Under the pieces are notes generated by a model that saw only the letters and a list, made by a program, of their open reading frames with translations, searched no databases and was not told the origin of the DNA. Shown here in pieces: positions 817 to 34,713 of a stretch of 64,000 nucleotides of DNA; the first letter of the stretch is position 1; every line of letters starts with the position of its first letter. The position numbers and the translations under genes were made by a program. The stretch spans positions 155,098-219,097 of the forward strand of contig OY761459.1 of NCBI GenBank assembly GCA_963664485.1, given 5' to 3'. Source of the DNA: Syntrophales bacterium (lineage in GTDB: Bacteria; Desulfobacterota; Syntrophia; Syntrophales; UBA2210).

Positions 817-1084
817 GGGGTCAGACTTCTAAATGCTCTGGATTGCGGATTTCTCCGCAATGACTAATAAGGAACCTGGATTCCGGGTCAAGCCCGGAAT
901 GACGGATAAAAAAACCTGGTTACCGCCCCGATTTTCATCGGGGTGACAATTCCTGGATACCGGCTTTCGCCGGAATGACTGAAAAGGACACTGGATTGCG
1001 GTTTTCACCGCAATGACTAATAAAAAAAGAACTGGATACCGGCCTTCGCCGGTATGACAAAAGAGTGCCGGGGTGACGGCCGGT
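817..1084. repeat. Array of ~27-bp palindromic REP-like units (CTGGAT-hairpin-ATGAC), family A
   Basis: Units at 838, 876, 916, 953, 991, 1032, e.g. ctggataccggccttcgccggtatgac, all in the same orientation; preceded by ggggtcagact. Confidence 0.95.
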
Positions 1085-7112: not shown

Positions 7113-7370
7113 CTGGATACCGGCTTACACCGGTATGACTGAAAAGGGCACTGGATACCGGTTTACACCGGTATGACAAAGAGGAGCCGGTATGACGAGA
7201 TAAGGGCACTGGTTTGCGGTTTTCACCGCAATGACGAATAAGTAACCTGGATTCCGGGTCAAGCCCGGAATGACGATAAAAAGAACTGGATACCGGCCTT
7301 CGCCGGTATGACTGAAAAAGGCACTGGATACCGGCTTTCGCCGGTATGACAAAAAGGAGCCGGCATGACG
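7113..7370. repeat. Family A REP-like array
   Basis: About six CTGGAT...ATGAC units starting 9 nt upstream of the GIY-YIG ATG. Confidence 0.95.
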
Positions 7371-12995: not shown

Positions 12996-13644
12996 GAAGG
13001 GGTAATTTTTCTGACGAGAAGGGGTAAATCTCGATACAACGCGCCATCGCTTAAAGAGCACAACAGATAACCCTTTCCCGACGATCCGGGCGTTGAGCTT
13101 CGATTTGAAGCGCAGGGAGGGTTTGTTGGGTTGCATGGTAATGCTGTAAAGTTTCGTCCTGCCGGTTTTTGCCAGTTCCTCGTACAGTCGGTATCGCAGA
13201 TATGGCGCTATACCCGTACCCCGGTACTTTTTCGAGGTATGGGCATCGAACAGGTAAGCTTCGTCTTTCGCGAGTGGGAACGGATGTTCCGTGAAATGAC
13301 AATATTCAAGATTACACCAGGTAAAAGCGACAACATTTCTCCCATCCAGTACCCCGAGGCATTTGTTTCCCGCTTGAAGACGCTTTTGCATAACCGACTC
13401 GCGCACGTCCCGCTCCGGCATAGCCGCGATCTGCGCCATATCTTCCGGACCAAGGAAACGAATCTCAATCGGAGACGAGGTTTTCGGAGCGCGGGGAGGA
13501 TCGCCGAAGAGACCTTCCATAACCAGGTAATAGGAATAGACCGATATGCCGGTTCCCGCGGTACCCGGCCAGGATATCGAGGAACAACTGCTCCCACGGC
13601 TCGTCCCTGAATTTACATGCAACATATTTGAGATAATCCCGCAT
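12879..13644 (-). pseudogene. GNAT-family acetyltransferase, probably frameshifted, with C-terminus reading into repeats
   Basis: EAYLFDAHTSKKYRGTGIA acetyl-CoA motif; the plausible N-terminus MRDYLKYVACKF from ATG 13644 is in another frame. Confidence 0.6.
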
Positions 13645-13645
13645 A

Positions 13646-13829
13646 AAAACAATGCTTAATTTTCAATGTTTAATGTTTAATTGAAAAACTGAAAACCAAA
13701 AAACAATGCTTAATTTTCAATGTTTAATGTTTAATTGAAAAACTGAAAACCAAAAAACAATGCTTAATTTTGAATGTTTGATGTTTAATTGAAAAACTAA
13801 AAAACAAGAAACAATGCTTAATTTTGAAC
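13646..13829. repeat. AT-rich tandem repeat, 54-bp period, ~3.4 copies
   Basis: caatgcttaatttt recurs at 13650, 13704, 13758, 13812. Confidence 0.95.
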
Positions 13830-13871
13830 TGAACAGCGAGCGAATAAAAAAGGATAGTAAGCAGGGACTTT

Positions 13872-14801
13872 CTATCTTTTAAAGTAGGTTATTGTTTTCT
13901 TCAGTCCTTCTTCGAGATCGATCTCCGGTTCCCATCGGAGTCTTTCTTTTGCCAGGGTGATATCGGGGCGGCGGTGCATAGGATCGTCCTGCGGCAGCGT
14001 GCCGAAAACGATTTTCGATTGCGACCGTGTTAATTCTATGATTTTTTCGGCCAGCTCCAGCATGCTGAATTCGCCGGGGTTTCCCAGGTTCACAGGACCG
14101 GTGAAATCACCCGGCAGGTTCATCATCCGGATTATTCCCTCGACCATGTCGTCGACGTAGCAGAATGACCGTGTCTGGGTTCCGTCTCCGAAGACGGTAA
14201 TATCGCTGTTATTCAGGGCATGGACTATAAAATTGCTGACTACCCTTCCGTCGTCCGGGTGCATTCTCGGACCGTAGGTATTGAATATTCTTACTACCCT
14301 GATATCCACGTTGTTCTGCCGGTGGTAGTCGAAAAAGAGGGTTTCGGCGCAGCGTTTACCCTCGTCGTAGCAGGACCGTATCCCTATGGGGTTTACATTA
14401 CCGCGGTAGTCTTCGGTCTGCGGGTGAACGGTCGGATCTCCGTAAACTTCGCTGGTGGATGCCTGGAGAATCCTGGCTTTCACCCTTTTCGCGAGCCCCA
14501 GCATGTGGATGGCGCCCATGACATTGGTCTTGACGGTTTTTACCGGGTTGTACTGGTAATGGATCGGCGATGCGGGACATGCCAGGTTGTATATCTGGTC
14601 GACTTCGAGAAAAATAGGCTGCACCAGGTCGTGGCGTATCAGCTCGAAATTGGGTTTTCCGAGAAGATGATTCACGTTTTCCTTCCCGCCGGTGAAGAAG
14701 TTGTCGAGGCACAGGACATCGTGGCCCTCTTCGACCAGCCGGTCGCACAGGTGGGAACCGAGAAATCCGGCTCCGCCGGTAACTAGAATGCGATTTTTCA
14801 T
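13872..14801 (-). CDS. UDP-glucuronic acid decarboxylase (UDP-xylose synthase-like SDR)
   Basis: [44 protein letters not shown]. Confidence 0.93.
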
Positions 14802-14816
14802 GATTTTATTCCTTAA

Positions 14817-15011
14817 GGGTCCAAGGATTCAAGGGGTCGAAAGATAAAGGGGTCGAGGATTCAAGGATCCTAGGGGTCGAAAGGTAAAGGGTTCAAGGAT
14901 TCGAGGATTCAAGGGGGCGAAAGCATCAAAGGCCAAGGATCCGAGGGGGCGAAAGTTAAAGGGGCCAAGGATTCAAGGATCCTAGGGGTCAAGGGGTCAA
15001 GGGGTCAAGGG
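14817..15011. repeat. Degenerate octamer tandem array (family B, G-rich on + strand)
   Basis: ggattcaa/ggggtcga/gggttcaa units; overlaps the four-helix-bundle stop codon. Confidence 0.92.
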
Positions 15012-15368
15012 TTTATTTTCTAGAGATTTTATCAGTGCTTTCAGCATTCTTTCGTTTTCCGCTATGTCCTCTTTCAGTTTATCCAATGCATCTTTCTCGA
15101 TTAAGTTTAAATCCCCTGCCAGCAATATCTGCGTTTCCAGTTCGCAAACAGAACCGTAAGATATATAAAGCATCCTGATGTAATCCAGGGTTGTTTTTCT
15201 TCCGTATCCTTCCGCTATATTGGAAGGGATAGACACGGCGGATCTTCTTATCTGGGAAGTCAGGCCATAAAGTTCTTCCTTTGGAAATTTTGCCGTTATT
15301 CTATATACTTCCAGACATAGTTCGTACGACTTCCGCCATACCTTCAACTCTTTAAAGTTCTTCAGCAA
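14997..15368 (-). CDS. Four-helix-bundle protein (23S rRNA IVP / bAvd-like)
   Basis: F.ELKVW.KS..L...VY.IT..FP.EE.YGLTSQIRRSAVSIPSNIAEG.GR. Confidence 0.93.
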   Translation of the reverse strand: MLKNFKELKVWRKSYELCLEVYRITAKFPKEELYGLTSQIRRSAVSIPSNIAEGYGRKTTLDYIRMLYISYGSVCELETQILLAGDLNLIEKDALDKLKEDIAENERMLKALIKSLENKPLTP

Positions 15369-15375
15369 TCCGCTT

Positions 15376-15532
15376 GGCCCCTTGAACCCCTTATCTTTTG
15401 CCCCCTAGACCCCTCGAACCCTCGGCCCCTTGGACCCCTTATCTTTTGTTCCCTAGACCCCTCGAACCCTCGGCCCCTTGGACCCTTTATCTTTTGTTCC
15501 CTAGACCCCTTGAATCCTAGACCCCTCGAATC
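15376..15532. repeat. Family B octamer array (C-rich on + strand), 48-bp higher-order period
   Basis: ttgaaccc/tcgaaccc/ttggaccc units; ttatcttttg recurs every 48 bp; includes the last codons of fcl. Confidence 0.92.
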
Positions 15533-16577
15533 CTTTCATATACCATTCGTACGTCTTCCGTATCCCTTCTTCGAGCGCGGTAGCGGCCTTCCAGCCTTTG
15601 CTCCGAATCCGGGAGAGGTCGAGCAGTTTTCGCGGTGTCCCGTCGGGTTTGGTGTCGTCCCATTCCATCCGGCCTTCGTAGGCGGTGATCCTGGACACCA
15701 TGTTCGCGAGATCCAGTATCGTGAGATCTTCGCCCGTACCGATATTGACGAATTCGCCTATTTCGTTCGCGTCATAGTTCTCCATGAGAAGAACAGCGGC
15801 GGCGGCCATGTCGTCGGCATAGAGAAATTCTCTCCTCGGCGCCCCGGTTCCCCATAGGGTGAGGCTGTCGGGGTAGATGCCGAATCCTGAGAGGTGTTTC
15901 GTTATCTGGCCCGGGGTACGGGGCGAATCGACCGGCAGGCCGTTACCGAATCGCTCGAGGTCGTGCCGGATGGCATCGTAATCCCCCCTGAAAAGGAGTC
16001 CGGCCAGGTGAAACCTGCGTATCATCGCGGGCAGAACGTGGGAAGTTTCGAGATCAAAATTGTCGTTCGGGCCGTAGAGGTTTGTGGGCATGACGGAGAT
16101 GAAATTCGTCCCGTATTGTTCGTTGTAATACCTGCACAGTTTTATCGCCGCTATCTTCGCTACGGCATACGGTTCGTTGGTCGGTTCCAGGGCGGACGTC
16201 AGAAGATATTCTTCCTTGAGGGGTTGAGGGGCTTCCCGGGGATAGATGCACGACGAACCGAGATTCAGGAGTTTTTTGACTCCATACGCATGGGAAGCAT
16301 TGATGACATTCGCCGCGATCATTATGTTTTCATAGATGAACTGCGCCTTGTATGTACTGTTGGCAAGAATCCCGCCGACCTTCGCCGCGCAGAGAAACAC
16401 ATATTCGGGCCTTTCTCTCTCAAATAAGTCTTCGACATCCTGCTGCCGCGTCAGATCCAGCTCTTCGTGAGACCTGCAGATCAGGCGTTCACAACCCTTC
16501 GCCGCTAGACTTCTCATAACGGCGGAGCCTACCATGCCGCGGTGACCGGCAATATATATCTTAGAGGATAGCATCAT
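15501..16577 (-). CDS. fcl: GDP-L-fucose synthase
   Basis: AGHRGMVGS, AAKVGGI.AN, LGSSCIYP, YAVAK, PTNLYG, SHVLPA, WGTGAPRREF, PDGTPRK. Confidence 0.95.
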   Translation of the reverse strand: MMLSSKIYIAGHRGMVGSAVMRSLAAKGCERLICRSHEELDLTRQQDVEDLFERERPEYVFLCAAKVGGILANSTYKAQFIYENIMIAANVINASHAYGVKKLLNLGSSCIYPREAPQPLKEEYLLTSALEPTNEPYAVAKIAAIKLCRYYNEQYGTNFISVMPTNLYGPNDNFDLETSHVLPAMIRRFHLAGLLFRGDYDAIRHDLERFGNGLPVDSPRTPGQITKHLSGFGIYPDSLTLWGTGAPRREFLYADDMAAAAVLLMENYDANEIGEFVNIGTGEDLTILDLANMVSRITAYEGRMEWDDTKPDGTPRKLLDLSRIRSKGWKAATALEEGIRKTYEWYMKGFEGSRIQGV

Positions 16578-16584
16578 AGGAAAA

Positions 16585-16994
16585 GCAATTTTTAATGTTT
16601 AATTTTTAATGGTTAATTAAAAAACTGAAAAACAAAAAGATAATTGCAAAAAATTATCACAAAAACCTCAAGGGCAATTTTTAATGTTTAATTTTAAATG
16701 ATTAATTAAAAAACTAAAAAACAAAAAGATAATTGCAAAAAGTTATCACGAAAACCTCAAGGGCAATTTTTAATGTTTAATTTTTAATGGTTAATTAAAA
16801 AACTGAAAAACAAAAAGATAATTGCAAAAAATTATCACAAAAAAAGGGCAATTTTTGATGTTTAATGTTAAATGGTTAATTAAAAAACTAAAAACAAAAA
16901 GATAATTGCAAAAAATTATCACAAAAACCTCAAGGGCAATTTTTAATGTTTAATTTTTAATGGTTAATTAAAAAACTGAAAAACAAAAAGATAA
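16585..16994. repeat. AT-rich tandem repeat, 85-89-bp period, ~4.7 copies
   Basis: Units start at 16585, 16674, 16763, 16848, 16936; the full units carry a GATAATT-N6-AATTATC-type inverted repeat. Confidence 0.96.
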
Positions 16995-17039
16995 CTTAAA
17001 AAGATTAAAGGCAAAGCGCAAGATTTTTCTATTGGTTTG

Positions 17040-18044
17040 TTAATAGCCGGCGTCGCGCAGGATTTTTCCCTTTTCTGCCAGTTCAAGGTCGGTTTCTATC
17101 ATCATATCTATCAGTTTATCGAAGGTTACCTCGGGTTCCCATCCGAAGGCCTTCCGCGCTTTGCTCGCGTCGCCCAGCAGCACGTCGACTTCGGTCGGCC
17201 TGAAGTAGCGTTCGTCGATTTCCACGTACCGGCGGTAATCGAGGTTCAGTTTTTCGAAGACGCGTTCCACGAACTCACGGACGGAGTGAGTTTCGCCTGT
17301 GGCGATGACGAAATCGTCCGGCTTGTCGTGCTGCATCATCATCCACATCGCCTTCACGTAATCGCCGGCGTAGCCCCAGTCACGCCTTGCATCCAGGTTT
17401 CCGAGAAAGAGTTTATCCTGCAGTCCCAGCTTGATCCTGGTTGCCGCGGTGGTGATTTTTCGAGTGACGAAGGTCTTGCCGCGCCTCGGCGATTCATGGT
17501 TGAAGAGTATGCCGTTGCAGGCGAATATATTGTATGCATCGCGATAGTTCCTGACTACGTAGTATGAATAAACCTTCGCGGCGGCGTAGGGACTCCGGGG
17601 CTGGAACGGCGTAAGCTCGTTCTGCGGGGGCGGAGCCGCTCCGAACATTTCGCTGGACGAGGCCTGGTAGAATCGCGCCTTGATACCGGTTTTCCTGATC
17701 GCCTCGAGCAGTCTGATCGTACCCAGTCCTGTGATGTCGCCTGTATATTCGGGAGTGTCGAAGCTCACCCTCACATGACTCTGGGCGCCCAGGTGATATA
17801 TTTCATCCGGCTTGATGTCGTAAAGCAGGTTGGTCAGGTGGGCGGATACGGATAGATCGCCGAAATGGAGATACATCCGCGCGTCGGGATCGTGGGAATC
17901 CCGGTAGAGATGATCGATGCGGCCGGTGTTGAAGGTGCTGGCCCTCCTGATAAGGCCGTGCACCTCGTATCCCTTGTCCAGAAGGAATTCGGCAAGGTAT
18001 GAGCCGTCCTGTCCGGTAATCCCGGTAATAAGCGCTTTTTTCAT
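17040..18044 (-). CDS. gmd: GDP-mannose 4,6-dehydratase
   Basis: [50 protein letters not shown]. Confidence 0.97.
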
Positions 18045-19075: not shown

Positions 19076-19750
19076 GGAAACACCTTGAATGCAATTTGCA
19101 ATGTTTAATGTTTAATGGTTAATTATTATTGCGGCAATTAAAGAGATTAAAAAGGGTTCAGGGTTCAAGGGGCCGAGGGTCCAAGGAACTGCTGTCATAA
19201 TTACTGCGGCAACAATATATGTCAAAGTTGTCATTCCGGTGCAAACCGGAATCCAGCCCCTTTTTGTCATTCCGTGCACGCGAAGCACGACACGGAATCA
19301 AATGTTATTTTTCTGGATACCGGCCTTCGCCGGTATGACGATATGAGATTGACTGCAATTTCAAATTTTTAATGGTTGAATGTTTGATTATTACTGCGGC
19401 AATTAAAGAGGTTAAAGGCAGGGTTCAAGGGGCCGAGGGTCCAAGGAACTGCTGTCATAATTACTCCGGCAACAATATATGTCAAAGTTGTCATTCCGGT
19501 GCAAACCGGAATCCAGCCCCTTTTTGTCATTCCGTGCACGCGAAGCACGACACGGAATCCAGTGTTATCAGGCAAGTTCCCATATTCCCCCTGCTTGACA
19601 CGGGAGCATCCAATGTTATTTTTCTGGATACCGGATTTCTCCGGTATGACGAAAAAAAAGAACTGGATTGCGGCGTCCGCCGGAATAGCGGTACGAACTA
19701 ACTGAAAAGCGTTTCATTAAGCATTAAACATTCAAAATTAATAATTGCCA
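19047..19750. repeat. Composite repeat island with a tandem duplication of the ~220-bp element
   Basis: Copies at ~19105-19340 and ~19372-19570, heptamer tracts at both ends in opposite orientation, extra family A units at 19624-19686. Confidence 0.92.
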
Positions 19751-25330: not shown

Positions 25331-25762
25331 TTATTACTCCGGCAACAATATGACAGCAGTTCCTTGGACCCTTGAACCCTTGGCCCCTTGAACCCTTGGA
25401 CCCTTGAACCCTTGGACCCTTGAACCCCCGGCCCCTTGAACCCTTGAACCCTGCCTTTAACCTCTTTAATTACCGTAAGTAATAATCAAAGATTCAACAT
25501 TAAACATTCAACATTGTACTCAAGTTCCTTCGTCATTCCGGTGAAAACCGGAATCCAGAAACTGTCTGGTAACACTGGATTCCGTGTCTTGCTTCGCGTG
25601 CACGGAATGACGACTTTGACATATATTGTTACCGGAGTAATTATGACAGCAGTTCCTTGAACCCTTGGCCCCTTGAACCCTTGAACCCTTAGAGCCCTTG
25701 AACCCTGCCTTTAGCCTCTCTAATTACCGTAAGTAATAATCAAAGATTCAACATTAAACATT
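25331..25762. repeat. Composite repeat island (TIR-bounded octamer modules, family A units, heptamers), inverted relative to the 12.7/19.1/34.4 kb copies
   Basis: ttattactccggcaac (25331)...ttaccgtaagtaataa (25485); second module ends ~25740. Confidence 0.92.
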
Positions 25763-27244: not shown

Positions 27245-27377
27245 CCCCTTGGCCCCTCCCCTTGGACCCCTCGAATCCTCTTGAATCCTCGAACCCTCGA
27301 ATCTTTGGCCCCTCGACCCCTTGAATCCTCGAACCCTCGAATCTTTGGCCCCTCGAATCCTTGACCCCTCGACCCCT
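27245..27377. repeat. Orphan family B octamer array between leuS and lptE
   Basis: ttgaatcc/tcgaaccc/ttggcccc units; 40-bp-period duplication at 27281 and 27321. Confidence 0.92.
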
Positions 27378-27381
27378 TCTT

Positions 27382-34384: not shown

Positions 34385-34713
34385 AACTTGAGTACAATGT
34401 TGAATGTTTAATGTTTAATTTTTGATTATTACTTACGGTAAGTAGAGAAGTTAAAGGCAGGGTTAGGGGCCAAGGGCTGTCAGGGTTCAAAGTCGTCATT
34501 CCGTGCACGCGAAGCACAAGGGGCCAAGGGGCCAAGGAACTGCTGTCATGTTACTGCGGCAATAAGAGAGGCTAAAGGCAGGGTTCAAGGGGCCCAAGGG
34601 GCCAAGGAACTGCTGTCATGTTACTGCGGCAATTAGAGATAAAGGCAGGGTTCAAGGGGCCAAGGGTTCAGAGGGGCCAAGGAACTGCTGTCATATCGTT
34701 GCCGGAGTAATAA
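34385..34713. repeat. Composite repeat island (heptamer, TIR-bounded octamer modules, family A fragment)
   Basis: ttattacttacggtaa (34426)...gttgccggagtaataa (34713); ggggccaaggaactgctgtcat occurs three times. Confidence 0.9.

What the first reader, a model, noticed from the sequence alone, without database searches (positions are those of the whole stretch)
14817..15532. Four-helix-bundle gene enclosed by inverted octamer arrays, with orphan arrays elsewhere
Seen: ~190 bp of G-rich 8-mers (ggattcaa/ggggtcga) on one side and ~155 bp of the complementary C-rich 8-mers on the other. They overlap this gene's stop and the last codons of fcl. The same 8-mers occur without the gene at 25.4, 27.3 and 34.5 kb. 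Established: this family includes the 23S rRNA intervening-sequence protein, whose ORF lies in an RNase III-excised stem-loop, and the RNA-binding Avd of DGRs. Inference: in the EPS mRNA the two arrays could pair into a long duplex that loops out the ORF like an IVS. That would be a second small-gene-plus-repeat system, perhaps affecting mRNA processing or its own spread.
Basis: partly seen in the sequence, partly recalled or inferred. Interest (0 to 1): 0.7.

Follow-up and report, generated by a model that had tools for sequence, protein, structure and literature searches.

The report
Hairpin-closed four-helix-bundle gene cassette in operon
A small conserved gene of unknown function sits inside a sugar-synthesis operon, wrapped by two mirror-image runs of 8-base repeats that can zip into a long stem, and the same gene-in-a-hairpin package recurs around its relatives in many phyla and decays into the gene-less repeat runs seen elsewhere in this genome.

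Summary
Window 14815-15536 (- strand) is one 722-nt unit. It holds a 123-codon PF05635/TIGR02436 four-helix-bundle gene between a G-rich and a C-rich array of tandem 8-mers, wedged between an fcl-like gene and the next epimerase/dehydratase gene.

- **Fold:** the arms form 134 inter-arm pairs (z = -8.5). This is the only tandem-array inverted pair in the 2.59-Mb genome.
- **Recurrence:** up- and downstream flanks are mutually complementary at 20 of 24 homologues in relatives and 61 of 73 across more than ten phyla. Repeat units differ from locus to locus.
- **Polarity and orientation:** the G-rich arm comes first in 85 of 90 loci. Both neighbours are co-oriented with the gene in 71 of 88.
- **Gain and loss:** within the genus, the same junction is pristine, or carries a decayed cassette, gene-less hairpins, or a GxxExxY-nuclease cassette.
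- **Orphan arrays:** the array at 27.3 kb lies where a congener keeps a truncated cassette.
- **Selection:** the ORF has dN/dS of about 0.05.

Not shown: RNA processing. There is no G·U-over-A·C bias (156 vs 153).

This scan has noted the architecture before on other DNA. Five literature searches found no paper linking these genes to the arrays. It is best read as an IVS-like, operon-riding, gain-and-loss cassette.

The parts
15373..15536 (-). 5' arm of the cassette: G-rich (in the transcript) array of tandem 8-mers with a 48-nt higher-order period. It overlaps the last 11 codons and the stop of the upstream fcl-like gene.
   Evidence: outermost and innermost predicted pairs at 15535/14823 and 15373/15009
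14997..15368 (-). Four-helix-bundle protein gene (123 aa; TTG start taken from the ORF list). It carries the RxxxSxxxNxxE motif at R42/S46/N50/E53.
   Evidence: PF05635 E=1.2e-39; TIGR02436 E=1.7e-39; PDB 2gsc XCC0516 E=1e-23; dN/dS 0.05 against the two G010 copies; invariant columns in alignment A2
14815..15011 (-). 3' arm of the cassette: C-rich (in the transcript) array of tandem 8-mers with a 40-nt higher-order period. It overlaps the last 4 codons and stop of the cassette gene and ends 13 nt before the start of the downstream gene.
15501..16577 (-). Its C-terminus is extended into the 5' arm.
   Evidence: NF047922 E=1.8e-133, 444.7 bits, below the curated cut-off of 500; Epimerase Pfam; C-terminus compared with relatives
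13872..14801 (-).
   Evidence: adjacent to fcl in 13 relatives' loci
27245..27378 (-). Orphan array of the same 8-mer family, G-rich in the sense of both neighbours. It fills the leuS | 177-aa-gene junction and is read as the surviving 5' arm of a lost cassette.
   Evidence: In congener G005 the same junction holds 5' arm + C-terminal 24 codons of the four-helix-bundle gene (tblastn E=5e-10) + 3' arm. G011, G012 and G002 hold gene-less arm remnants there.
25362..25706 (-). Two orphan arrays (25362-25452 and 25655-25706), each the core of a dispersed element with conserved ends (GACAGCAGTTCCTTG ... CCCTGCCTTTA). Both are G-rich on the - strand.
   Evidence: 7 + 6 copies of the left end in the genome
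34517..34682 (+). Orphan arrays of the same dispersed element, in the opposite orientation (G-rich on +), upstream of a + strand gene.
19152..19182 (.). Short (31 nt) orphan array, C-rich in the sense of its neighbours. It is one of only three such cases, all short.

Best explanation
Window 14815-15536 is one self-contained hairpin cassette. It is a four-helix-bundle (PF05635/TIGR02436) gene enclosed by two mutually complementary arrays of tandem 8-mers. It sits in the junction between two genes of a nucleotide-sugar operon and lies in the same direction as both.

SHOWN:
- The architecture, and that it is unique in this genome.
- The same arm-gene-arm layout surrounds most homologues in relatives and in more than ten phyla, with repeat units that differ between loci but match between the two arms of each locus.
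- The G-rich arm comes first.
- The gene is co-oriented with its neighbours.
- The unit is gained and lost as a block at this junction.
- The ORF is under purifying selection.
- The cassette decays to gene-less hairpins and solo arrays.

INFERRED:
- The cassette has no promoter of its own and is read through with the operon.
- Once the 3' arm is transcribed, the arms zip into an interrupted stem of about 134 bp. The stem loops out the ORF, buries its ribosome-binding region, and offers RNase III (rnc is present) a substrate, as in the ORF-bearing intervening sequences of 23S rRNA. The insert would then be cut out of, or insulated within, the host transcript.
- The G-first polarity keeps the C-rich arm from lying naked as a Rho loading site, so the downstream host gene is still expressed.
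- Spread happens at the DNA level by an unknown route. There is no target-site duplication and no transposase.
- The two arms stay alike through selection for pairing and/or hairpin-templated correction.
- The orphan G-rich arrays are what remains after the gene and the C-rich arm are lost.
For: Fold:
- z = -8.5. There are 134 inter-arm pairs in 18 helices, longest 21 bp, with the 11 nt before the start codon paired.

Family-wide association of gene and arms:
- 20 of 24 genes in relatives exceed the 95th percentile of mismatched up/down flank pairs.
- 61 of 73 loci from Desulfobacterota, Nitrospirae, Bacteroidota, Planctomycetota, Patescibacteria, Clostridia, Chloroflexi, Acidobacteriota, Gammaproteobacteria and others, plus one Methanophagales MAG, exceed the same bar. 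40 of 73 exceed the 99th percentile.

Concerted change of both arms at one orthologous Flavobacterium site:
- Units vary between species (CAAAGG/CAGAGG, CTAAGG/CTGAGG, GAGTAGCT), and the complementary variant appears in the 3' arm.
- The cognate pair beats all but at most 1 of 16 non-cognate pairs in 5 of 9 loci.

Polarity and orientation:
- The 5' arm has G>C in 85 of 90 loci, C>G in 1, and ties in 4.
- Of 88 loci with both neighbours called, 71 are ++ and 4 are --.

Block mobility:
- The own copy and two copies in G010 share 85-86% ORF identity and the same arm units in three different contexts. Similarity stops at the outer edges of the arms.

The same fcl|uxs junction across 13 relatives' loci:
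- 5-nt pristine junction (G007).
- 51-92 nt spacers without a cassette in eight loci (G012 and a second G010 locus 51 nt, G001 59, G029 69, G002 82, G004 90, G008 91, G003 92).
- An internally deleted cassette (G005).
- A gene-less hairpin with other units (G006, z = -4.0).
- Composite repeats (G011).
- A GxxExxY gene between inverted CACGAAA arrays (G010).

Other support:
- A roughly 95%-identical metagenome contig carries the same cassette at the same junction with different array lengths.
- dN/dS = 0.05 at dS 0.77-0.89.
- rnc and rho genes are present.
- Of 12 orphan arrays lying between co-directional genes, 9 are G-rich in sense, including all those of 33 nt or more. The 3 that are C-rich in sense are 31-32 nt.
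- RNase III excision of ORF-bearing 23S IVSs is taken from passages of PMC4990558.
Against: - No RNA-end data exist. The only RNA-library evidence is one 381-nt contig (98% identical, covering 15079-15454), which does not prove transcription.
- Mismatches between arms show no wobble bias (G·U 156, A·C 153, transversion-type 362, against 2822 matches in 90 loci). Nothing therefore marks the sense RNA rather than DNA as the selected level, and about 19% of aligned arm positions are mismatched.
- The DNA-level fold is equally good on both strands (-123 and -119 kcal/mol).
- No enzyme for mobility is encoded. This genome has no GxxExxY gene and no PF00078 reverse transcriptase.
- 4 of 24 and 12 of 73 homologues lack detectable complementary flanks, among them the second copy in this genome.
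- The Rho idea predicts nothing about arm lengths that I could confirm: 5' arm longer in 48 loci, 3' arm longer in 41, p = 0.75.
- The neighbour-strand and orphan-orientation calls rest on crude ORF finding, not on gene prediction.
Confidence: 0.6

Rival explanations
1. A DNA-level hairpin element. The arms matter as single-stranded DNA hairpins or cruciforms for excision, insertion or copying, in the logic of REP/RAYT or IS200/IS605, and the RNA stem is a by-product. The four-helix-bundle protein or a host enzyme acts on the DNA structure.
For: No G·U-over-A·C bias. DNA folds are equally stable on both strands. Gain and loss happen as a block without a target-site duplication. A nuclease-fold cargo (GxxExxY) sits in an equivalent cassette at the same junction in G010. 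Array lengths differ between strains about 95% identical.
Against: No transposase or nuclease is in this cassette, and no GxxExxY gene is in this genome. The strong co-orientation with host genes (71 ++ vs 4 --) is not expected of a symmetric DNA hairpin element unless expression by read-through matters. The homologous rRNA IVSs are processed as RNA (PMC4990558 passages). This rival is not exclusive of the best explanation.
Confidence: 0.25
2. A host regulatory device. The stem is an mRNA processing or attenuation site that this operon uses to set the ratio of fcl to the downstream enzyme, and the small gene is a passenger.
For: It lies exactly between two cistrons, the stem hides the region before the cassette gene's start, and G-rich arrays of the same family fill other intercistronic spacers.
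Against: None of the 13 relatives' loci holds an intact four-helix-bundle cassette at this junction, and nine of them (eight of 12 genomes) have only a 5-92-nt spacer without a cassette or arm pair there. The same cassette sits in unrelated contexts. The gene itself is under strong purifying selection.
Confidence: 0.07
3. G-quadruplex / i-motif simple-sequence repeats, as described for GGGAATC repeats in Xanthomonas. The G-runs, not the duplex, are the functional feature.
For: The 5' arm has GGGG runs every 8 nt. Folding it alone with G-quadruplexes allowed gives -53.6 against -45.6 kcal/mol. PMC4692102 passages report G4 formation in vitro and 70-75 convergent inverted pairs of such repeats.
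Against: Most homologous cassettes have units without G-runs, such as TTAGACG, AGTCGTA, GTTGTCG and TTAAGTA, yet they keep arm complementarity.
Confidence: 0.04
4. Chance juxtaposition. This genome is rich in intergenic short tandem repeats, and the gene merely lies between two of them.
For: There are sixteen orphan arrays of the same family and many other 7-8-mer arrays in the genome.
Against: This is the only tandem-array inverted pair closer than 2.5 kb in the genome. The association recurs in 20 of 24 and 61 of 73 homologues with different units. Arms and gene move together.
Confidence: 0.02

Closest known systems
ORF-bearing intervening sequences (IVS) of 23S rRNA (Coxiella burnetii helix 45; Leptospira, Brucella and Xanthomonas as named in PMC4990558)
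   Same: The same protein family (S23p / PF05635) is encoded in the loop of a stem formed by terminal inverted repeats. In Coxiella the 28-bp stem is cut by RNase III and the excised RNA is short-lived (passages of PMC4990558). Here the ORF also lies in the loop of a long stem and rnc is present.
   Different: The host here is a protein-coding operon, not rRNA; no Rfam family, and so no rRNA, matches in the window. The arms are 164-197-nt arrays of tandem 8-mers, not a short unique inverted repeat. Excision is not shown. The ORF here is under purifying selection, whereas the Coxiella ORF is described as decaying.
G-rich heptamer simple-sequence repeats of Xanthomonas (GGGAATC) and Nostoc (GGGGA(C/T)T; STRR-type), PMC4692102
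   Same: Tandem 7-8-nt G-rich units in intergenic spacers close to ORF ends, mostly between co-oriented genes. In Xanthomonas there are 70-75 pairs in convergent (inverted) orientation that could form stem-loops (passages).
   Different: In the passages I read, that paper does not connect the repeats with any gene between them (XCC0516: 0 occurrences) and interprets them as G-quadruplex formers. Here the pair encloses a conserved gene, and the units vary freely between loci.
Avd accessory protein of diversity-generating retroelements
   Same: Distant sequence similarity and the same four-helix-bundle fold family (PF22296 E=5e-5; NF033474 E=3.9e-6).
   Different: Both scores are far below the curated cut-offs. 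No reverse transcriptase (PF00078) was found anywhere in this 97.9%-complete single-contig genome. No template/variable repeat pair is present.
REP/REPIN elements with RAYT, and MITEs
   Same: Dispersed intergenic hairpin-forming repeats whose full form carries a gene and whose gene-less forms are more numerous. Here there are decayed and gene-less hairpins and solo arrays.
   Different: No tyrosine transposase or any transposase is present. The arms are tandem arrays with lineage-specific units rather than one conserved palindrome. No target-site duplication is visible at three insertion sites.
GxxExxY (TIGR04256, PD-(D/E)XK-fold) gene cassettes
   Same: In congener G010 the very same fcl|uxs junction holds a GxxExxY gene between inverted tandem arrays (44-nt arms, 95% complementary), purine-rich arm first.
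   Different: The cargo protein and the repeat units (CACGAAA) differ. I found no published description of either cassette. This genome has no GxxExxY gene.

Membership tests
PF05635 / TIGR02436 four-helix-bundle protein (23S rRNA IVS protein family) | Profile score above the curated cut-off | tested here: met
   PF05635: 135.3 bits against a cut-off of 33.8. TIGR02436: 134.4 bits against 24. NF008911: 150.5 bits against 137.
PF05635 / TIGR02436 four-helix-bundle protein (23S rRNA IVS protein family) | Conserved motif GxxRxxxSxxxNxxE (as given in PMC3936711) | tested here: met
   R42, S46, N50 and E53 are present and invariant in 16 aligned relatives. The first position is Q39 here, not G. The motif wording comes from the passage.
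PF05635 / TIGR02436 four-helix-bundle protein (23S rRNA IVS protein family) | Homology to a solved four-helix-bundle structure | tested here: met
   2gsc (XCC0516) E=1e-23; 2rld E=1.8e-4. The pentameric ring is taken from PMC4990558 (citing Lin et al. 2006) and was not tested.
ORF-bearing 23S rRNA intervening sequence | Inserted in a 23S rRNA gene (helix 25 or 45) | tested here: not met
   The flanks are protein-coding genes. No Rfam match in the whole window.
ORF-bearing 23S rRNA intervening sequence | Terminal inverted repeats that form a stem enclosing the ORF | tested here: met
ORF-bearing 23S rRNA intervening sequence | Excision from the precursor RNA by RNase III | not testable with these tools
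   All four runs that were laid are stored as contigs, not raw reads. An rnc gene is present.
DGR accessory protein Avd | Equivalog score and an adjacent reverse transcriptase with template/variable repeats | tested here: not met
   NF033474: 27.1 bits against a cut-off of 80. No PF00078 match in the genome.
REP/RAYT, MITE or IS-type transposable element | A transposase (in cis or in the genome family) and target-site duplication | tested here: not met
   The only ORF is the four-helix-bundle gene. No direct repeat was seen by eye at the outer arm edges of three copies. No dedicated transposase search was run.
G-rich heptamer SSR / STRR-type intergenic repeats | Tandem 7-nt G-rich units in intergenic spacers, sometimes in convergent pairs | tested here: inconclusive
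   Tandem, G-rich, intergenic and convergent features are met. The unit is 8 nt, and the family has no formal definition.

The most novel reading that the evidence does not exclude
Four-helix-bundle and GxxExxY genes may be alternative cargoes of one pan-bacterial class of operon-riding, hairpin-closed mini-cassettes, with the 23S rRNA IVSs as a special case. On this reading they survive inside essential operons for two reasons: the transcript stem lets the host cut them out or insulate them, and the G-rich-first polarity hides the C-rich arm from Rho. Their decay products, gene-less hairpins and then solo G-rich arrays, would be the source of the long-unexplained intergenic 7-8-mer tandem repeats (STRR-type, GGGAATC-type) of many bacteria. 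The cargo protein would recognise its own lineage-specific repeat unit.
Probability: 0.3. Interest if true: 0.85.

Novelty: new variant of a known kind. Interest (0 to 1): 0.68.

Why it matters
PF05635/TIGR02436 proteins are among the commonest uncharacterised small proteins of bacteria. Their only described context is the 23S rRNA intervening sequence and, distantly, DGR Avd.

If most of them live in self-closing hairpin cassettes inside ordinary operons, three things follow:
- The family gets its first candidate nucleic-acid partner, its own arms.
- The rRNA IVS stops being an oddity and becomes one landing site of a general element.
- Intergenic 7-8-mer tandem repeats get a concrete origin that can be tested.

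This window adds a natural series within one genus. The same junction is found empty, filled with either of two cargo types, decayed, or reduced to a hairpin. A solo array here also matches a truncated cassette in a congener.

The G-first polarity (85 of 90 loci) and the co-orientation with host genes (71 of 88) are simple, falsifiable regularities. They point to transcription-level constraints such as RNase III and Rho.

Tried and rejected
- **RNAduplex on 250-nt flanks.** Cognate -121.7 vs non-cognate -97.3 kcal/mol on average, but dominated by length and GC. Dropped in favour of strict local alignment.
- **Wobble test for a sense-RNA signature.** Null: 156 vs 153. With about 19% mismatches its power is low, so it neither supports RNA-level selection nor excludes it.
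- **Arm-length asymmetry as a test of the Rho idea.** Null: 48 vs 41, p = 0.75. The inner-edge distances from that script are unreliable, because chance 7-mer matches contaminate them, and are not used.
- **Protein identity against arm similarity.** Confounded by orthologous flanking genes in the Flavobacterium group. Arm similarity is at background below 60% protein identity. At 68-73% identity in different contexts the arm scores were mostly above the background 90th percentile: own1, L006 and L007 vs L021 gave 11-22, while own2 vs L015 and L003 vs L004 were above background only for the 3' arm. That is too few pairs for a claim.
- **Promoter and terminator scan of 13600-17100.** 8 promoter-like sites against 4.5 +/- 2.0 expected, none on the - strand inside the 5' arm. 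Terminator-like sites were at chance level. No conclusion drawn.
- **Rfam on the window.** No match.
- **PF13366 and PF00078 in this genome.** None found, so neither a GxxExxY nuclease nor a reverse transcriptase can be invoked in this genome.
- **Read laying.** The many short joints in run X5 that link G-rich to C-rich arrays across 496-621 nt have sides under 35 nt at 85% likeness. They probably come from other organisms' hairpins and are not counted. Uncovered parts in X3 and X12 mean nothing.
- **The search for related loci with the 16-sequence alignment A2.** Repeated with the 6-sequence alignment A3.
- **Not run.** No structure prediction, complex prediction or large protein-database search, because family membership was already clear.
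Full report
**What is there.** On the - strand the window carries gmd (17040-18044; TIGR01472, 527 bits). Next comes a GDP-L-fucose-synthase-like gene (15501-16577; NF047922 E = 1.8e-133, below its cut-off), and then an SDR epimerase/dehydratase (13872-14801). Between the last two lie 702 nt that hold a 123-codon ORF (14997-15368). The ORF matches PF05635 (E = 1.2e-39), TIGR02436 (E = 1.7e-39) and the solved protein XCC0516 (2gsc, E = 1e-23).

The ORF is bracketed by tandem 8-mer arrays at 15373-15536 and 14815-15011. In the transcript the first array is G-rich and the second C-rich. The first array supplies the last 11 codons and the stop of the fcl-like gene. The second supplies the last 4 codons and the stop of the small gene, and it ends 13 nt before the next start codon.

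**Is it more than chance?**
- The repeat finder pairs the arrays over 123 nt at 72% complementarity.
- The 731-nt sense RNA folds at -288.1 kcal/mol against -223.3 +/- 7.6 for 20 shuffles, z = -8.5.
- The minimum-energy structure has 134 inter-arm pairs in 18 helices, the longest being 21, 16, 15 and 12 bp. The 11 nt before the start codon are paired.
- A whole-genome search for clustered inverted 10-mers less than 2.5 kb apart found 12 clusters. The others are unit palindromes or IS-like terminal repeats, and this is the only pair of tandem arrays.

**Relatives.** PF05635 has 2 matches in this genome and matches in 24 of 41 related genomes, this one included. I fetched 20 stretches holding 22 of those genes and read their flanks. 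Nearly all have a tandem 7-9-mer array upstream and its complement downstream. The unit differs from locus to locus: GGGGTCA, GGCACAG, AACAGTA, GTTTAAA, CGTAAGT, TTAAGTA, GGTGAGA and more.

- With a strict local alignment of the upstream flank against the reverse complement of the downstream flank, cognate pairs score a median of 18.8, against 8.5 for the 552 mismatched pairs.
- 20 of 24 genes exceed the mismatched 95th percentile. The failures are the second copy in this genome, L002b, L011a and L016.
- A pattern scan of one genome per species returned 80 loci from more than ten phyla and one Methanophagales MAG. Of these, 73 had full flanks.
- Among those 73, the cognate median is 17.0 against 9.0. 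61 of 73 exceed the 95th percentile and 40 of 73 the 99th.

**Do the arms change together?** Nine of those loci are one orthologous insertion in Flavobacterium, with the same upstream stop and the same downstream start. Their units differ (CAAAGG/CAGAGG, CTAAGG/CTGAGG or GAGTAGCT types), and each 3' arm carries the matching complement. In 5 of 9 loci the cognate pair beats all but at most 1 of 16 non-cognate pairs within the group. That fits either compensatory selection or a copying mechanism between the arms.

**RNA or DNA?** I compared mismatches that would be G·U in the sense RNA with those that would be A·C.
- Over 90 loci with an alignable arm pair there were 2822 matches, 156 G·U, 153 A·C and 362 transversion-type mismatches.
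- So there is no sense-RNA signature, and about 19% of arm positions are unpaired in any case.
- DNA folds of the two strands are equally stable.

Two other regularities do point to transcription.
- The 5' arm has G>C in 85 of 90 loci, C>G in 1, and ties in 4. This polarity reads the same on both strands of an inverted repeat, so it is a property of the element, not of the ORF's direction.
- The ORF is co-oriented with its neighbours. Of 88 loci where both neighbours could be called with a crude longest-open-frame rule, 71 are ++, 9 +-, 4 -+ and 4 --.
- No promoter-like site lies on the - strand in the 5' arm, but the scan as a whole is near chance.

My reading, which is inference: the cassette depends on read-through from the host operon. 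A C-rich arm transcribed first would stay single-stranded for about 400 nt and invite Rho. A G-rich arm does not, and it captures the C-rich arm as soon as that emerges. Both rho and rnc are present. A predicted corollary, 5' arm at least as long as the 3' arm, was not found (48 vs 41).

**Gain, loss and decay.**
- *Copies in different contexts.* Congener G010 holds two copies of the cassette in unrelated contexts. They share 85-86% ORF identity with this one, and the same arm units with different array lengths. Similarity ends at the outer edges of the arms, with no target-site duplication seen by eye.
- *Selection on the ORF.* dN/dS is 0.05 at dS 0.77-0.89, so the protein is maintained.
- *The fcl|uxs junction.* It is conserved in 13 loci from 12 related genomes, 11 of them congeners. 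The spacer is 5 nt in G007 (TAATTATG). It is 51-92 nt without a cassette in eight loci: G012 and a second G010 locus (51), G001 (59), G029 (69), G002 (82), G004 (90), G008 (91) and G003 (92).
- *Decayed and alternative forms at that junction.* G005 has 135 nt that align to a G010 cassette as 5' arm + ORF scraps + 3' arm + a small terminal hairpin. G006 has a gene-less hairpin with different units (z = -4.0). G011 has 296 nt of composite repeats. G010 has an 850-nt insert that is a GxxExxY gene (TIGR04256, E = 7e-45) between inverted CACGAAA arrays (44-nt arms, 95% complementary).
- *A near-identical strain.* A metagenome contig about 95% identical to this window carries the four-helix-bundle cassette at the same junction. 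In its 3' arm, 91 nt are replaced by 59, and its 5' arm is about 50 nt shorter. The arrays therefore change length faster than the ORF changes sequence.

**The orphan arrays.** A pattern scan finds 16 arrays of this 8-mer family outside the cassette.
- Of the 12 that lie between co-directional ORFs, 9 are G-rich in the sense strand, including every array of 33 nt or more. The 3 that are C-rich in sense are 31-32 nt. These strand calls use ORFs of at least 120 aa, not gene predictions.
- The array at 27245-27378 fills the leuS | 177-aa-gene junction. At that junction in the genus, G010, G007, G008, G003 and G001 have short plain spacers. G011, G012 and G002 have a G-rich arm followed by a degenerate C-rich tract. 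G005 has 5' arm + the last 24 codons of a four-helix-bundle gene (tblastn E = 5e-10) + 3' arm. So this orphan is best read as the relic of a cassette.
- The arrays at 25.36, 25.66, 34.5 and 19.2 kb are different. They are the cores of a small dispersed element with conserved ends, with 13 copies of one end in the genome. I did not establish their relation to the cassette.

**Literature.** Five full-text searches found no paper that links PF05635 or GxxExxY genes to flanking inverted tandem arrays. What I read, as passages only:
- PMC4990558: the Coxiella IVS has a 28-bp stem, is cut by RNase III, and carries the S23p ORF. Ralph & McClelland 1993 and Lin et al. 2006 are known to me only as cited there.
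- PMC3936711: 18 23S_rRNA_IVP genes lie inside cas loci, for example between cmr3 and cmr2.
- PMC10910872: one figure legend.
- PMC10053308: PF05635 resembles Avd.
- PMC4692102: GGGAATC repeats in Xanthomonas, 70-75 convergent pairs, G4 formation in vitro, and no mention of XCC0516.
- PMC4679880: TAACTGA repeats in Beggiatoaceae.
- PMC3424549: one table row, PF13366 function unknown.
- bioRxiv 10.1101/2021.01.26.428298: two passages.

I opened no supplements.

**Earlier notes of this scan.** Two look-ups returned 58 and 51 AI notes describing the same arm-gene-arm layout for four-helix-bundle and GxxExxY genes in other genomes. I made these look-ups after my own survey of relatives and re-tested the claims on my own loci. 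The notes are not independent evidence.

**Verdict.** The IVS-like reading is supported for architecture, recurrence and gain-and-loss, and is unproven for RNA processing. The thing is a new variant of a known kind: an ORF-bearing IVS outside rRNA, with arms built of tandem repeats. It is apparently undescribed in print, and this window adds a clear decay series and the polarity and orientation rules.

Noticed in passing
G000:153905-154210 (- strand; about 0.9 kb before the window start): This is the second PF05635 gene of the genome (113 bits). Its 3' flank is a TTTAAGA/CTTAAAT-type tandem array. Its 5' flank has only an AATGTTT-type stretch and then 38-nt palindromic repeats. The up/down complementarity is at background (score 8.5), so it may be a cassette that has lost one arm.
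   Followed up: partly
window 16585-16994 and 13645-13851: The gmd-fcl spacer is a 4.7-fold tandem repeat of an 89-nt AT-rich unit. The spacer after the epimerase gene is a 54-nt unit repeated 3.4 times. The 89-nt unit has a 40-nt, 87.5% match to the 3'-arm zone of the GxxExxY cassette at the fcl|uxs junction of congener G010. Neighbouring junctions of this operon may therefore also hold cassette debris.
   Followed up: partly
window 25340-25760 and 34390-34700: A composite element lies in opposite orientation at two places 9 kb apart. It consists of an AATGTTT array, a TACTTACGGTAAGTA palindrome, TAAAGGCAGGG, an octamer array and CAAGGAACTGCTGTC. It is duplicated in tandem at 25.4/25.7 kb and repeated about 2.2 times at 34.5 kb. 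I did not examine what lies between the two places.
   Followed up: no
window 953-1058, 7265-7358; G000:154270-154550: Arrays of a 38-nt unit contain the palindrome CCGGnTTTCGCCGG followed by AATGAC (REP-like). Related copies occur at 12.9, 25.5 and 34.3 kb.
   Followed up: no
L014:1-1244 (G034 C84): Upstream of this four-helix-bundle gene, the 5' arm (CGTACGT/CATAAGT units) plus the first ~50 nt of the ORF are repeated about three times in tandem. This is a partial duplication of the cassette head.
   Followed up: no
L030 (Methanophagales MAG) and L046, L073, L076, L077, L084, L087, L090 (Patescibacteria): Homologues at 45-52% identity occur in an archaeal MAG and in several candidate-phyla-radiation MAGs. 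L030 was too close to a contig end to be scored. Of the Patescibacteria loci, L046, L073, L077, L084, L087 and L090 exceeded the mismatched 95th percentile, and L076 did not.
   Followed up: partly
L007 and L105, just after the 3' arm; loose ends of runs X3 and X12: Some copies of this cassette lineage carry an extra small hairpin, CTCTTCTCC-AACTAAATT-GGAGAAGAA, just outside the 3' arm. The copy in this window lacks it.
   Followed up: no
G000:1607091-1608484: A pair of 116-nt inverted repeats lies 1162 nt apart. It was the strongest non-array inverted pair in the genome scan and is probably an insertion sequence or similar.
   Followed up: no
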